A stretch of DNA of 62,091 nucleotides, from assembly GCF_032062105.1 (NCBI RefSeq), contig NW_026921340.1:124001-186091 (forward strand), read 5' to 3'. A program made the position numbers. Shown here one piece after another: positions 39,501 through 45,500 of the stretch. How positions within the stretch are numbered: position 1 is the first letter of the stretch; each line of letters starts with the position of its first letter. The stretch comes from Saccostrea cucullata. Its lineage: Eukaryota.

Positions 39501-42500
39501 CATCATAAAAGACGGTCCTCCTTGACAATACTGTATAAAATATACACTGTAATAGTCAATCACATCATAAAAGACAGTCCTCCTACACAATACTTAAAGA
39601 GGAAAATATACCATAAAAGATGGTCCTCCTAAATAATACTTAAAGAGGAAAATATACCATAAAACATGGTCCTCCTAAATAATACTTAAAGAGGAAAATA
39701 TACCATAAAAGACAGTCCTCCTAAATAATACTTAAAGAGGAAAATATACCATAAAAGATGATCCTCCTAGACAATACTAAAAAGAGGAAAATATACCATA
39801 AAAGATGGTTCTCCTAGACAAAACTAAAAAGAGGAAAATATACCATAAAAGATGGTTCTCCTAGACAATACTAAAAAGAGGAAAATATACCATAAAAGAT
39901 GGTTCTCCTAGACAATACTTAAAAGAGGAAAATATACCATAAAAGATGGTCCTCCTAAAAGCTTAAAGAGGAAAATATACCATAAAAGATGGTCCTCCTA
40001 AATAATACTTAAAGAGGAAAATATACCATAAAAGACAGTCCTCCTAAATAATACTTCAAGAGGAAAATATACCATAAAAGACAGTCCTCCTAGACAATAC
40101 TAAAAAGAGGAAAATATACCACAAAAGACAGTCCTCCTAAATAATACTTAAAGAGGAAAATATACCATAAAAGACAGTCCTCCTAGACAAAACTAAAAAG
40201 AGGAAAATATACCATAAAAGACAGTCCTCCTAGATAATACTAAAAAGAGGAAAATATACTATAAAAGACAGTCCTCCTAAATAATACTTCAAGAGGAAAA
40301 TATACCATAAAAGACAGTCCTCCTAGACAATACTAAAAAGAGGAAAATATACCATAAAAGACAGTCCTCCTAGATAATACTAAAAAGAGGAAAATATACT
40401 ATAAAAGACAGTCCTCCTAGATAATACTAAAAAGAGGAAAATATACTATAAAAGACAGTCCTCCTAAATAATACTTCAAGAGGAAAATATACTATAAAAG
40501 ACAGTCATCCTAGACAATACTAAAAAGAGGAAAATATACCATAAAAGACAGTCCTCCTAGATAATACTAAAAAGAGGAAAATATACTATAAAAGACAGTC
40601 CTCCTAAATAATACTTCAAGAGGAAAATATACTATAAAAGACAGTCCTCCTAGACAATACTAAAAAGAGGAAAATATACCATAAAAGACAGTCCTCCTAA
40701 ATAATACTTCAAGAGGAAAATATACTATAAAAGACAGTCCTCCTAGATAATACTAAAAAGAGGAAAATATACCATAAAAGACAGTCCTCCTAAATAATAC
40801 TAAAAAGAGGAAAATATACTATAAAAGACAGTCCTCCTAGACAATATTAAAAAGAGGAAAATATACCATAAAAGACAGTCCTCCTAAATAATACTTCAAG
40901 AGGAAAATATACCATAAAAGACAGTCCTCCTAGACAATACTAAAAAGAGGAAAATATACTATAAAAGACAGTCCTCCTAAATAATACTTCAAGAGGAAAA
41001 TATACCATAAAAGACAGTCCTCCTAGAAAATACTAAAAAGAGGAAAATATACCATAAAAGACAGTCCTCCTAAAAAATACTAAAAAGAGGAAAATATACT
41101 ATAAAAGACAGTCCTCCTAGACAATATTAAAAAGAGGAAAAATATACCTAAATAATACTTCAAGAGGAAAATATACCATAAAAGACAGTCCTCCTAGACA
41201 ATACTAAAAAGAGGAAAATATATAAAAGACAGTCCTCCTAGATAATACTAAAAAGAGGAAAATATACTATAAAAGACAGTCCTCCTAAATAATACTTCAA
41301 GAGGAAAATATACCATAAAAGACAGTCCTCCTAGACAATACTAAAAAGAGGAAAATATACCATAAAAGACAGTCCTCCTAGACAATACTAAAAAGAGGAA
41401 AATATACCATAAAAGACAGTCCTCCTAGACAATACTAAAAAGAGGAAAATATACTATAAAAGACAGTCCTCCTAGACAATACTAAAAAGAGGAAAATATA
41501 CCATAAAAGACAGTCCTCCTAGACAATACTAAAAAGAGGAAAATATACCATAAAAGACAGTCCTCCTAGACAATACTAAAAAGAGGAAAATATACCATAA
41601 AAGACAGTCCTCTTAAATAATACTTAAAGAGGAAAATATACCATAAAAGATGGGCCTCCTAAATAATACTTCAAGAGGAAAATATACTATAAAAGACAGT
41701 CCTCCTAGACAATACTAAAAAGAGGAAAATATACCATAAAAGATGGGCCTCCTAAATAATACTTAAAAGAGGAAAATATACCATAAAAGACAGTGCTCCT
41801 AGGCAATACTTAAAAGAGGAAAATATACCATAAAAGACAGTGCTCCTAGGCAATACTTAAAAGAGGAAAATATACCATAAAAGACAGTCCCCCTAGGCAA
41901 TACTTAAAAGAGGAAAATATACCATAAAAGATGGTCCTCCTGAATAATACCTAAAGAGGAAAATATACCATAAAAGATGGTCCTCCTAAATAATACTTAA
42001 AGAGGAAAATATACCATAAAAGATGGTCCTCCTAAATAATACCTAAAGAGGAAAATATACCATAAAAGACAATGCTCCTAGGCAATACAGTTGATTCTCG
42101 ATAAACCGCCACCTTTTGTAATTTAGAAATCATGGCGGTATAACAAATTTGGTGATGAACTGAATTTTCCATCTTTTAAGAAATAAGACGTAGAATTATC
42201 GTTCTTAGAAATAACATTTAGAGTTTCTATTCTTATTTTCACATGTACATGCATATATAAACATATTTCTAAATTTAAGAATACTTCAAGTAATTTTTAT
42301 ATGTTCAATTTCGCTAAAACAAAATATTCAGTTATGAAATTAAGACAAGTACATGTGTATGCATGTAAATCTGCGATATTGGAAAAAAAAAATGCTGGGT
42401 CAATTGTCGTGATATATTGCCTATAGTACGTAAAATAAGTTCTTGAATAAATTCATTTGTTTATGAAATCATTTTTAATGAAACGTTCACAATTTCTGAC

Positions 42501-45500
42501 TTATAATTATTTTTTAAGCAAACTTTGCATTGTTTTTAAAAGCAGAGATCATCAAAATAATATTGTTATCGGCTTATTTCACAACGACCGCTTTCGTGGC
42601 GAAGCCATGACTAAATGATTTTATTAAACAGAAAATAAAATTATTCTAACAGTTCAATGTTAAAATTATTGTTTACTTAATTGCATGGTTGCACTGGTTT
42701 ACTGCTTTACAACAGGGATAGCGTCAACCAATTAGCCGTGCTTCACTGACCACATGCATATATCGAGATAATTGACACTTAAAATGGATGCTTGTTGTGA
42801 AAACAGGGTGGCGGATGGCGGTATGCGAATTTGGCGTTATAAAGAGAATTTTATATAGCAGGAAAAACGTTCTTGGGAAATCATGGCGGTATTGCGAAAA
42901 TGGCGATGAATCGGATGGCGATAATTCGAGAATTGACTGTACTTAAAATAGGAAAATATACCATAAAAGACAGTGCTCCTAGACAATACTAAAAAGAGGA
43001 AAATATACCATAAAATATCCTAGACAAGACTTAAAGAGGAAAATATATGCTGTCAAATATATTGCAGTTTCTTATTTTCAATTGAAGCAAGAGTTTTAGA
43101 GAGTTTGTTTACCATCTAATGTGAGTTTTCTCCAGTAATTTTCTTTCCCTCCCAAAGTAGCAGGGGCCTCATCTATATTGGCCAGGTACTGAAAATGGAG
43201 AAAGAATATCATGTATTATATTCATCATTAAAGTAATTAGTCTCTTTGACTGAACTAAGGAAAAGTTAAAGCACACTGTATAGTAAAACTCAGTTATAGT
43301 GAAGTCCTGGGGACCTGTGAATTTAATTCACTATATCCGTAATTCATTATATCCGTATAACAAATTCGCAATATGGATGTTTTCCTTCAAGAATTACTAC
43401 CAAATATGTTAGGGAAGCAAAGATTACAAAACATATCTTCGATAACTAAGGTTTTATTATGAATTGAATTTATATACAAATACTTAAAGGAAATAAAGTC
43501 AGATAATTTTATCAAGTTTTTTAATAATCTATGAAAGTTCGTTATACAAGATGTAAATTTTATTATATTTAACCTCTACGGGACTCAAAATCAGTTCACT
43601 GTATCCGTAAATTTGTTTATATCAGAGTTTGTTATAACCGTAAAATTTTACAAAGATTTGTTAAGAATTTTGCCGGGGACCCAGAAAAACTTCACTATAT
43701 CTGTGAATTCGCTATATCCGTGTTCGTACTAAACGAGTTTTACTGTACATACAAAAAATTATGATTCATCTTGTGCAGATCATATAATTTAATTGTTGAT
43801 ATCTTACGGTGCTTATAATTTTAGCACCTTTCAAGCAGACAACGTATGTTGCACTACTTAAGTAATTTAAGAATAATTTATTAAATTGTGAATAAATTAA
43901 ATCAATGCATGGCAAGAATATCTACAATACAGTGCTAATTAATAGCTGTGCCATCCACTTTAAATTTTATTTACATGTAGAAAGATATTTACAAAATTTA
44001 TATATGTAAAAGTTAGCTGAGGAAAGTGGTTAAGTTGTAACCTGTAATTTTGTATATACCTGCATGTAATCCTTTACTGTAGTGACATCTATTTCGTCCG
44101 TGATTTTGTATATACCTGTATGTAATCCTTTAGTGTTGTGACGTCTATTTCGTCTGTGATTTTGTATATACCTGCATGTAATCCTTTAGTGTTGTGACGT
44201 CTATTTCGTCTGTGATTTTGTATATACCTGCATGTAATCCTTTAGTGCTGTGATGTCTATTTCGTCCGTGATTTTGTATATACCTGCATGTAATCCTTCA
44301 GTGTAGTGACGTCTATTTCGTCGGTGATTTTGTATATACCTGCATGTAATCCATTAGTGTAGTGAAGTCTATTTCGTCGGTGATTTTGGATATACCTGCA
44401 TGTAATCCTTTAGTGTTGTGACGTCTATTTCATCTGTGATTTTGTACTGCTGGTTATACATGGCGTCCTGTAACATCTGATCGTAGAATTTCCTGTTCCC
44501 CATGTTTCTCAATGAATCTTCAGATGCCTGTAAAATTTTTGTGTCTTTGTAAATTGTTACTCCTACCAAAGCAGTATACTCTCTACAATAGTACAACATC
44601 TATATTGACATTTCCATCTCCTTGCAAAAGGACACAATAAACTATATGTAGGGGCAGAATTTTTTTTAGGGGTTATACAATTAATTAAAAATTGTTCAAT
44701 CCTTTAAGTAACTTACCTCTGTTGCTGGTTTGATTACTCGTCTCCCACTGAGGTACTTTACACCTTTGCCTTCTGTGTGGATAAATATCTTGAAGAAAAT
44801 CATGGGAGGGAACTCTTGTCCACCGAATCTAATGAAGGAGAAAATAAACTGATCTTAAAATATATACTTGATTACATTATTTTATCTTATACATGTGGAG
44901 GATACTGCCCATGAAATAAACATATCAAATTATATGATAAAAAAAATGAAATATAAATCTAGATTCTGTCGGAAAAATTATTAACAATATAATACAAATT
45001 TATATCCTTAATGACTTTTCTGAATCTAATTGTGATCTGATTTAGTGTGATTTAATGATTGATTTACTTAAAACTAAGTCTGATTTTTATGACTTACCTA
45101 AACCTAACTCTGACTTGATTGACTTTGTCATTAAGGAGTTCGGCTTCTTTTGGACACACTTTTCTTAATATCTCTTTTGACAGAGAATTTTCCTATTAAA
45201 AGAAAATGATCGAGTAAAGATTTCATTGTGAAGGAAATGCATACAATCATCCATTCTGAACACATTAATTTGCATGACATTATATTTAGAGATATATTGA
45301 ATTTTGTACTTACAGCAGCACATACAGCATGCTTTAACAATCGGAACATCTGTTTATCTCTAAATGCAATCCACTGTCTCTCAATGATGGTAGCAGCAGC
45401 TTGTCTGATTAATCTTGAGAAATACGAAGAAAATTATGAAAACAACTACATATTTAACACAAACAATAAAAGGAGAAAATCTACAAGCATATATTATTTT

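What the first reader, a model, noticed from the sequence alone, without database searches (positions are those of the whole stretch)
39530..43048. ~55 candidate in-frame 27-nt microexons in one intron
Seen: on the gene strand each 46-bp unit reads GTATA-polypyrimidine-AG | 27 nt | GTATAT. The 27 nt are phase 1-1 symmetric, the same phase as the host intron. They encode (V)LSRRTVFY or variants such as LFRRTIFY. The same gene uses a GTATAT donor at exon 5. Inference: dozens of decoy acceptors precede the true one, so either they are silenced (adjacent spacers are only ~19 nt, too short to be introns) or non-adjacent units could be included, giving variable peptide insertions.
Basis: partly seen in the sequence, partly recalled or inferred. 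Interest (0 to 1): 0.72.

Follow-up and report, generated by a model that had tools for sequence, protein, structure and literature searches.

The report
Splice-junction minisatellite in an oyster intron
About 55 head-to-tail copies of the boundary between an intron and the next exon have swollen a short oyster intron to 3.6 kb, so each copy looks like a tiny exon, but the copies appear to be inherited duplicates drifting neutrally rather than working exons.

Summary
On the minus strand, 39531-43048 holds 56 tandem units of 46/47 nt. Of these, 47 read AG | 27 nt | GTATAT and are open in the host phase.

The host gene is CXorf58-like of the oyster Saccostrea cucullata, 100% identical over all nine coding exons.

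Each unit is a copy of the real intron 6/exon 7 junction. Its 27 nt are the first 27 nt of exon 7, with 3 differences from the array consensus. So the acceptor, frame and peptide come by descent, not by selection for a function.

Variation among units looks neutral: 5 synonymous, 12 non-synonymous and 0 stop changes, against 20/57/4 possible. A transposon sits inside one unit.

Public protein models carry one copy of the peptide.

The closest known kind is the "mirage" minisatellite of amphioxus, together with human exon-boundary VNTRs such as F7.

The same gene has two clear further junction arrays (exon 5 donor x7, exon 7 donor x4) and a degenerate one at exon 3. The neighbouring IFT80 gene has at least two. 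This is more than chance gives.

Whether any unit is spliced in could not be tested here, because no RNA data were available.

The parts
43113..43188 (-). Exon 6 of the CXorf58-like gene (YLANIDEAPATLGGKENYWRKLTLD plus 1 nt), donor ATG|GTAAAC.
   Evidence: tblastn of public protein P0003, 100% identical apart from flank residues; boundaries read; donor matches 5 of 9 consensus positions.
43049..43112 (-). The only unique part of intron 6 (64 nt), carrying a TTTGAC branch-point-like motif about 23 nt before the first decoy AG.
   Evidence: Sequence read; length; the branch-point reading is inference from the general URAY consensus (recalled).
42942..43048 (-). Distal block of the array: a 40-nt degenerate unit (21-nt in-frame exon-like part), one regular 47-nt unit, and the start of the unit hit by the transposon.
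42086..42941 (.). Transposon insertion (MITE-like, 856 bp including flanking TA on both sides) inside the exon-like part of one unit, with 26-nt terminal inverted repeats.
   Evidence: Inverted repeat I1, 77% complementary; terminal sequence unique in the window; TA/TA flanks read. Assignment to Tc1/mariner-type is inference from the TA duplication.
39595..42085 (-). Main block of the array: about 52 units of 46/47 nt, each a 19-20 nt spacer (GTATATTTTCCTCTT...AG) plus a 27-nt copy of the start of exon 7. It has 3- and 6-unit higher-order periodicity.
   Evidence: (D1-D4).
39531..39594 (-). Proximal 62-nt partial duplicate: a copy of the first ~46 nt of exon 7 (VLCRRTVFYDVIDY), then the last 16 nt of the intron (TGTATATTTTATACAG) with the true acceptor. 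It contains a TTGAC branch-point-like motif about 26 nt before the true AG.
   Evidence: D3 (39553-39594 is 90% identical to 39491-39532, spacing 62); (tblastn hit 39593-39552).
39377..39530 (-). True exon 7 (154 nt, (V)LSRRTVFYDVIDYLYNQRVTPRLRQEIPLLVQRPVSQEIKVQHIRAISTLR), the parent of the array units.
39218..39399 (-). Second junction array: 3.9 copies of a 47-nt unit (last 17 nt of exon 7 plus first 30 nt of intron 7), giving 3 decoy copies of the donor CAG|GTGGGT downstream of the real one.
   Evidence: (97% matches), D10, (3 extra copies of the junction 24-mer).
44042..44446 (-). Third junction array: 7.2 copies of a 56-nt unit carrying the end of exon 5 (..KITDEIDVTTLKDYMQ) and its CAG|GTATAT donor.
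   Evidence: searches (92% matches; six extra tblastn hits), D5, (6 extra copies).
45056..45125 (-). Probable old, degenerate duplicate (30 nt x 2.3, 72% matches) of the exon 3 donor junction TTTAG|GTAAGT.
   Evidence: Not recovered by the 24-mer test, so this is weaker.

Best explanation
**What it is.** This is a junction-derived minisatellite of the kind called a "mirage" in amphioxus.

**How it arose.**
- A 46-47-nt segment spanning the last ~19 nt of intron 6 and the first 27 nt of exon 7 of the oyster CXorf58-like gene was duplicated in tandem.
- It was then amplified to about 55 copies by slippage or unequal exchange. This turned an intron of roughly 80 nt into one of 3582 nt.

**Why the units look like microexons.**
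- Each copy inherits the acceptor AG, the reading frame and the peptide of exon 7.
- The GTATAT after the 27 nt is simply the start of the next copy of the intron tail.
- The 27-nt length, a multiple of three, is an accident of the breakpoints.

**How it behaves.**
- The units evolve neutrally and are not maintained as exons.
- I infer that the productive mRNA joins exon 6 (43113) directly to exon 7 (39530).
- I infer that decoy use is kept low by several things: the 19-20-nt spacing, the lack of a full-sized exon and strong donor behind each decoy, and a canonical branch-point motif that in the unit consensus is found only before the true acceptor.
- Pairing of each unit's pyrimidine tract with its AGGAGGA stretch may also contribute.

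**Shown versus inferred.**
- Shown: the descent from the junction, the neutral pattern of change, the transposon hit, and the single-copy public protein models.
- Inferred: the duplication mechanism and the silence of the decoys.
For: 1. Descent from the junction.
   - Repeat family D3 puts 54 copies in register with the true exon 7 start.
   - The array consensus differs from the first 27 nt of exon 7 at 3 of 27 positions.
   - The true acceptor is still preceded by GTATATTTT, the start of the unit spacer.
   - A 62-nt proximal copy keeps 46 nt of exon 7.
2. The exon is the ancestor, not the array. LSRRT[IV]FYD[VI][IV]DY is present once in all 8 fetched bivalve homologues, mussels included.
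3. Neutral change.
   - There are 17 distinct variants in the 27-mer: 5 synonymous, 12 non-synonymous, 0 stop, against 20/57/4 possible.
   - They fall 5/5/7 over codon positions 1/2/3.
   - The probability of no stop by chance is 0.38.
   - By my reading, the 27-nt part varies at 14 of 27 positions and the spacer at about 5 of 20.
4. A MITE-like element with TA flanks lies inside the exon-like part of one unit. Seven of 56 units have lost the AG, the GT or the length.
5. Typical array dynamics. There are 3- and 6-unit higher-order repeats. The centre is homogenised, and older variants sit at both edges.
6. The same process acted elsewhere.
   - In this gene, the exon 5 donor is copied x7.2 and the exon 7 donor x3.9. 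In IFT80, one acceptor and one donor are copied.
   - Junction 24-mers have an extra local copy in 5 of 50 cases, against 13 of 1500 controls, Fisher p = 1.8e-4.
7. Precedent.
   - Amphioxus mirages on both acceptor and donor sides do not disturb normal splicing by RT-PCR (PMC3087553, section 16 read; PMC3902484, passage).
   - In human F7 only the first of 5-9 identical donors is used (PMC1557585, abstract and Introduction).
8. A genuine 21-nt microexon of this gene (38364-38384, STYDSSS) looks different. It has introns of 179 and 889 nt and a TCG|GTAAGA donor.
Against: - No RNA evidence was available, so the silence of the decoys is inferred.
- By simple measures the decoys are as good as real sites. 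Acceptor pyrimidine content is 13-16 of 20, against 12 of 20 for the true site. Donors match 4-5 of 9, against 5 of 9 for the real exon 6 donor.
- The first decoy lies 83 nt from the exon 6 donor behind a TTTGAC motif. That is a complete-looking short intron which might compete.
- Non-adjacent units would give introns of 65 nt or more, which I cannot exclude as spliceable.
- All 47 exact units are in frame and open, so inclusion would escape nonsense-mediated decay and could go unnoticed.
- The RNA-pairing idea is weak. The z-scores are only -2.3 to -2.9, and in the same folds the true acceptor is also paired.
- The junction enrichment rests on one 20-kb stretch and was noticed after the fact.
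Confidence: 0.8

Rival explanations
1. Non-adjacent units are really spliced in as in-frame 27-nt cassette microexons. The protein then gains one or more 9-residue (V/I)L[SF]RRT[VI]FY insertions before the same motif of exon 7, varying with tissue or with array allele.
For: - 47 units have AG | 27 nt | GTATAT, all open in the host phase.
- GTATAT is a working donor at exon 5.
- The decoy sites score as well as real ones.
- The gene does use one true microexon.
- According to the Introduction of PMC1557585, the human 6-16 and CBS genes use two pseudo-donors of a boundary minisatellite besides the real one.
Against: - The features are inherited from exon 7, so they need no functional explanation.
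- The substitution pattern is neutral.
- A transposon sits in one unit.
- All 8 fetched protein models carry the motif once.
- The spacers are 19-20 nt.
- Amphioxus acceptor-side mirages splice normally.
Confidence: 0.08
2. The array is harmful or partly artefactual. Either this haplotype is a poorly spliced, hypomorphic allele of the kind oysters are thought to carry in numbers, or the assembly has inflated or mis-ordered the copy number.
For: - The first decoy forms a complete-looking 83-nt intron with the exon 6 donor, so mis-splicing is plausible.
- The neighbouring IFT80 model is damaged in the same contig. It has 678 aa against 784-795 aa in mussel and scallop, with an exon internally deleted inside a junction array. 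So either the haplotype or the assembly is imperfect here.
Against: - All nine coding exons of the CXorf58-like gene are intact and 100% identical to the public model.
- The array has ordered higher-order structure, diverged edge units and a transposon insertion. Those features are not what a collapsed or inflated assembly usually gives.
Confidence: 0.08
3. The array has been co-opted as an intronic regulator. Fifty copies of a pyrimidine tract and an AGGAGGA purine motif could form an RNA duplex ladder, or could bind splicing proteins, and so tune splicing or the timing of intron 6 removal.
For: - Predicted folds of 2-3 units pair UCCUCUU with AGGAGGA, with z-scores of -2.6 and -2.9.
- The 24 nt around the unit boundary are the least variable part of the unit.
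Against: - The z-scores are modest, and the distal units do not fold better than shuffles (z +1.35).
- Low variation at the boundary is also expected from homogenisation.
- No unit was seen in the 102 nt upstream of exon 7 in another oyster (P0002).
- No Rfam family matches.
Confidence: 0.04

Closest known systems
"Mirage" minisatellites of amphioxus (Adh3, globins BflGb6 and BflGb9, troponin C, PGBD5)
   Same: - They are minisatellite-like tandem duplications whose unit spans an intron/exon boundary.
- They occur on either the acceptor or the donor side, and they duplicate AG/GT signals.
- Several can occur per genome and per gene.
- They show concerted evolution in the centre with diverged edge copies.
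- Normal splicing is reported.

Sources: PMC3087553, section 16 read; PMC3902484, passage. The founding paper, PMC117041, is not held.
   Different: - The host is a mollusc, not a cephalochordate. My searches found the term only in amphioxus papers.
- The copy number is far higher: about 55, against 3-6 in BflGb6.
- The unit is shorter than in the globins (46-47 nt against 150-160 nt).
- The exon-like part happens to be a symmetric in-frame 27-mer followed by a GT.
- Splicing and length polymorphism were not tested here.
Human minisatellites whose first unit spans an exon-intron boundary (F7 IVS7 37-bp VNTR; also 6-16, CBS, LMNB2 and PDGF as listed in that paper)
   Same: - The exact splice site is reiterated in the intron.
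- In F7 only the authentic, most upstream donor is used.
- In 6-16 and CBS two pseudo-sites are also used.

Source: PMC1557585, abstract and Introduction read. These are the closest match to the exon 5 and exon 7 donor arrays seen here.
   Different: - All of those examples are donor-side. The finding is an acceptor-side array in which the authentic site is the last copy, not the first.
- The 5'-to-3' scanning rule shown for donors therefore does not by itself predict the outcome.
Micro-exon genes of schistosomes and other cassette microexons (recalled from general knowledge; no call)
   Same: Short symmetric exons, multiples of 3 nt, that can be combined to vary a protein.
   Different: Those microexons are separated by ordinary introns and are seen in transcripts. 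Here the spacers are 19-20 nt, the units are copies of the neighbouring exon, and there is no transcript evidence.
Intron gain or expansion by tandem genomic duplication (Rogers model; internal gene duplication)
   Same: Duplication of a segment carrying splice signals remodels intron-exon structure. The amphioxus paper links mirages to this model. The search listing shows papers on this topic, seen as titles and abstract starts only.
   Different: No new intron position is created here. An existing intron is enlarged about 45-fold.

Membership tests
Mirage / junction-spanning minisatellite | Head-to-tail tandem array of minisatellite-sized units | tested here: met
   56 units of 46/47 nt; TRF scores 2409-3718.
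Mirage / junction-spanning minisatellite | The unit contains a copy of an exon end plus the adjoining intron end of the host gene | tested here: met
   Family D3 has 54 copies in register with the true exon 7 start. The consensus differs from exon 7 at 3 of 27 positions. The spacer starts with the same GTATATTTT as the true intron tail.
Mirage / junction-spanning minisatellite | The array abuts the authentic boundary, which is its terminal member | tested here: met
   The proximal 62-nt copy ends at 39531, directly at the true acceptor.
Mirage / junction-spanning minisatellite | Splice signals (AG/GT) are reiterated in the copies | tested here: met
   47 of 56 units keep AG and a following GT.
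Mirage / junction-spanning minisatellite | Normal splicing is not disturbed (RT-PCR in amphioxus) | not testable with these tools
   No RNA data. The only indirect evidence is that the public protein models carry the motif once.
Mirage / junction-spanning minisatellite | Length instability or polymorphism between haplotypes | not testable with these tools
   Only one haplotype is in hand, and no oyster genome collection was available.
Functional cassette microexons | Flanked by AG and GT, with length a multiple of 3 and phase compatible with the neighbours | tested here: met
   47 units, 27 nt, phase 1-1.
Functional cassette microexons | Flanking introns long enough to be spliced | tested here: not met
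   Adjacent spacers are 19-20 nt, while the real introns of the gene are 121-3582 nt. Only non-adjacent pairing (65 nt or more) would be possible.
Functional cassette microexons | Purifying selection on the encoded peptide | tested here: not met
   5 synonymous, 12 non-synonymous and 0 stop variants against 20/57/4 possible, spread evenly over codon positions.
Functional cassette microexons | Presence in transcripts or protein models | tested here: inconclusive
   0 of 8 fetched homologues has a second copy of the motif.
Functional cassette microexons | Conservation in related species | tested here: inconclusive
   P0002, a read-through protein from another oyster, shows no unit in the 34 residues upstream of exon 7. 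No genomes of other oysters could be searched.

The most novel reading that the evidence does not exclude
Tandem duplication is aimed at splice junctions by a process tied to transcription or splicing, and this process works in lineages as far apart as oysters and amphioxus. It would repeatedly seed junction arrays that enlarge introns, offer ready-made in-frame pseudo-exons, and may feed changes back into the parent exon. On that last point, the S. cucullata-only Ile-to-Val change in exon 7 matches the majority state of the array.

The support is the density seen here. At least six junction arrays lie in 20 kb: three clear ones plus a degenerate one in one gene, and at least two in its neighbour.
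Probability: 0.25. Interest if true: 0.75.

Novelty: new member of a known kind. Interest (0 to 1): 0.5.

Why it matters
Junction-spanning minisatellites have been described as an oddity of amphioxus and of a few human genes. Finding a cluster of them in an oyster, one with about 55 copies, suggests the process is widespread and perhaps targeted at junctions. It would then be a real route by which short introns become long.

The array is also a natural experiment in 3' splice-site choice. About 50 near-identical acceptors, with pyrimidine tracts as good as or better than the true one, lie upstream of the site that the public protein models use.

For annotation it is a warning. Such arrays produce perfect-looking in-frame microexons, and in the neighbouring IFT80 gene the public model places an exon inside one.

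Tried and rejected
- **Pfam.** Six exon-level translations of the host gene gave nothing above threshold.
- **Rfam.** The search of 37000-47000 gave no match.
- **Isoform look-up.** The cluster-member look-up, meant to find isoforms with +9n residues, was unavailable. Hidden isoforms stay unchecked.
- **Founding mirage paper.** PMC117041 is not held. What I say about Adh3 comes second-hand.
- **Supplements.** These are closed. Additional files 4-7 of PMC3087553, the mirage alignments and trees, were not seen and could bear on how similar the unit anatomy is.
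- **RNA folding as the discriminator.** Units pair the pyrimidine tract with AGGAGGA (z -2.3 to -2.9). The true acceptor is paired in the same fold, and the distal units are not structured (z +1.35). I kept this only as a minor idea.
- **The 24-mer copy test.** It did not recover the exon 7 acceptor array itself or the exon 3 donor duplicate, because their intron halves have diverged. Those rest.
- **Array as a dispersed satellite that gave rise to exon 7.** Rejected, because the motif is conserved once in mussel proteins and the repeat is confined to this intron within the window.
- **Isoforms X1/X2 differing by an array unit.** Rejected. The difference seen in the S. echinata X1 protein is a separate 21-nt microexon present at 38364-38384.
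- **Other oyster genomes.** None could be searched. So the age and distribution of the array stay unchecked.
- **Joined model.** I searched exon by exon and made no search with a joined spliced model of my own. Exon mapping used public proteins returned by the searches.

Full report
**Observation**

On the minus strand, the interval between the exon 6 donor (43113) and exon 7 (first base 39530) is almost entirely a tandem array.
- A 14-nt anchor occurs 56 times.
- Units are 47 nt (33 units) or 46 nt (18). Five are irregular, one of them because an 856-bp element is inserted.
- TRF finds periods of 47, 93, 140 and 280 nt.
- A 34-mer across the unit boundary matches 53 times, only inside 39597-42980. 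None matched in 100 shuffles.
- The pattern AG | 27 nt | GTATAT holds exactly in 47 units, all open in the host phase.

**The host gene**

- The exon 7 translation is 100% identical to "uncharacterized protein CXorf58-like isoform X2" of Saccostrea cucullata (P0003, 426 aa).
- That protein maps to the window as nine coding exons at 100% identity.
- The junction reads ...KLTLD|VLSRRTVFYDVIDY..., phase 1, with one copy of the motif.
- I searched exon by exon and left out any search with a joined model of my own.

**What the units are**

- The 27 nt of a unit are the first 27 nt of exon 7. The array consensus differs at 3 of 27 positions, and 54 copies fall in register with the real junction (family D3).
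- The spacer begins GTATATTTT, exactly as the last 16 nt of the true intron do (tGTATATTTTatacag).
- Next to the true acceptor lies a longer 62-nt copy that keeps 46 nt of exon 7.
- The motif is present once in oyster and mussel proteins. So the exon is ancestral and the array derives from it.

The microexon look follows from this descent.
- The AG, the frame and the peptide are inherited.
- The GTATAT "donor" is the start of the next copy.
- The multiple-of-three length is a one-in-three accident of the breakpoints.
- Without the array and the inserted element, intron 6 would be about 80 nt: 64 unique nt plus the 16-nt tail.

**Is there selection for coding?**

I find none.
- Among 46 strictly parsed units there are 17 distinct variants in the 27-mer.
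- They split into 5 synonymous, 12 non-synonymous and 0 stop, against 20/57/4 possible single changes.
- They fall 5/5/7 over codon positions.
- The chance of seeing no stop is 0.38.
- A second frame is open in 45 of 46 units too.
- A MITE-like element with 26-nt inverted ends and TA flanks sits in the exon-like part of one unit.
- Seven units have lost a signal or the length.

The array has the usual minisatellite anatomy.
- The centre is homogenised (ACTGTC).
- Both edges keep ACCATC, which encodes the Ile found in all 7 other bivalve proteins. The S. cucullata exon has Val.
- Either the exon or the array may have passed this change to the other. I cannot tell the direction.

**Could the units be spliced?**

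Sequence alone does not forbid it.
- Unit donors match 4-5 of 9 consensus positions. The real exon 6 donor matches 5, and exon 5 uses GTATAT.
- Unit pyrimidine tracts (13-16 of 20) are as good as or better than the true one (12 of 20).
- The first decoy lies 83 nt from the exon 6 donor behind a TTTGAC motif.

Several things argue against use.
- The spacers are 19-20 nt.
- A 27-nt "exon" has no strong donor behind it.
- The unit consensus has no canonical branch-point motif, while TTGAC lies 26 nt before the true AG. This is my reading, using a recalled consensus.
- Possibly, the pyrimidine tract pairs with AGGAGGA (z -2.3 to -2.9). This is weak, because the true site is paired as well.

A real 21-nt microexon of this gene (38364-38384) has ordinary introns and a GTAAGA donor. 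It explains the X1/X2 isoform difference seen in S. echinata.

**Surroundings**

The same kind of array recurs nearby.
- Exon 5 donor: 56 nt x 7.2.
- Exon 7 donor: 47 nt x 3.9.
- Exon 3 donor: a degenerate duplicate.
- IFT80, on the other strand: an acceptor copied 2-3 times at 51115-51278, and a donor array at 56119-56331.

The statistics for this clustering are as follows.
- All 6 TRF arrays of period 25 or more in 37271-57018 include a real junction. If parental segments were placed at random the joint probability is about 7.5e-6.
- Junction 24-mers have an extra local copy in 5 of 50 cases, against 13 of 1500 controls, p = 1.8e-4.
- This was noticed after the fact, in one 20-kb stretch.

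A read-through protein from another oyster (P0002) repeats RAISTLR at the exon 7 donor with 30-nt spacing. So that junction is duplicated in a second lineage too.

**Comparison with what is known**

- Amphioxus "mirages" are minisatellite-like duplications of intron/exon boundaries on either side. They show edge-versus-centre homogenisation and normal splicing (PMC3087553, section 16; PMC3902484, passage).
- Human F7, 6-16, CBS, LMNB2 and PDGF have donor-side boundary minisatellites. F7 uses only the first donor, while 6-16 and CBS also use two pseudo-sites (PMC1557585, abstract and Introduction).
- My searches found the term "mirage" only in amphioxus papers, and nothing for oysters.

**Verdict**

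This is a real, striking, but explicable structure: a new, very large acceptor-side member of a known kind, in a new phylum. Use of the units as exons is unproven and, on present evidence, unlikely.

Noticed in passing
window 44042-44446 (minus strand): 7.2 tandem copies of a 56-nt unit carry the end of exon 5 (KITDEIDVTTLKDYMQ) and its CAG|GTATAT donor. The real donor is the first copy. Using a later one would shift the frame and meet a stop.
   Followed up: partly
window 39218-39399 (minus strand); protein P0002: 3.9 copies of a 47-nt unit span the exon 7 donor. A read-through protein from another oyster (P0002) repeats RAISTLR with 30-nt spacing, so this junction seems to be duplicated in a second lineage with a different unit length.
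   Followed up: partly
window 45056-45125 (minus strand): A degenerate 30-nt duplicate (72% matches) of the exon 3 donor junction TTTAG|GTAAGT. It is possibly an old, decayed junction array.
   Followed up: no
window 51115-51278 (plus strand): The acceptor junction ttcag|GT[CG]TGGGA.A..TAT.G of an IFT80 exon (true start 51255) is present two more times upstream.
   Followed up: partly
window 55890-56375 (plus strand): IFT80: 43- and 32-nt arrays of the ...CTACAACTGGGACAG|GTAAAT donor junction. The public model places a 60-nt exon (VNSVQLYNWD) inside the array. Mussel and scallop proteins have 56 residues here (AEKVQF...LYNWD). The window keeps AEKVQ, VNIKDI and YNWD pieces but lacks the middle. 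About 100 nt upstream the acceptor tgtgtatttgtg[t/c]ag|GCAGAGAA is also duplicated.
   Followed up: partly
window 46624-57018 (plus strand): The S. cucullata IFT80 model is 678 aa, against 784-795 aa in mussel and scallop. An N-terminal exon (ELVSCVGWTTP... / ...PTDMHWFPKSAKRG, about 46955-47224) appears split between two frames. This could be a damaged haplotype, a decaying copy or assembly error.
   Followed up: no
window 42086-42941: An 856-bp element with 26-nt terminal inverted repeats and TA on both flanks (MITE-like, Tc1/mariner-type target) is inserted in one array unit. No second copy is in the window.
   Followed up: partly
window 38364-38384 (minus strand): A genuine 21-nt cassette microexon (STYDSSS; cttatag|...|gtaaga) lies between exons 8 and 9. 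It is present in the S. echinata isoform X1 protein and absent from the S. cucullata X2 model.
   Followed up: yes
window 39510-39515 (exon 7) against the array units: Exon 7 of S. cucullata encodes TVFY, where all 7 other bivalve proteins have TIFY. Most array units share the G that makes Val, while edge units keep the ancestral A. This may be gene conversion between array and exon, or two waves of duplication.
   Followed up: partly
window 317-15185: Several ORFs encode Gly/Tyr/Ser-rich, apparently secreted low-complexity proteins (for example 317-1057 plus strand, 8319-8849 plus strand, 14562-15185 minus strand with a 21-nt GYGGIGG coding repeat). They are possibly shell-matrix-like genes.
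   Followed up: no
window 27728-27826 and 29495-29690: 8-nt arrays (ACAGGTCG and its reverse complement) in inverted orientation flank about 1.7 kb that holds ORFs. This looks like the ends of a mobile element.
   Followed up: no
window 47683-48397 (plus strand): Two to three diverged copies (65-78% identity) of a repeat spaced about 245 nt apart in an IFT80 intron. They account for most control hits in the local-copy test and are not junction-derived.
   Followed up: no
window 6893-7094: A run of 202 N. It was left as it is.
   Followed up: no
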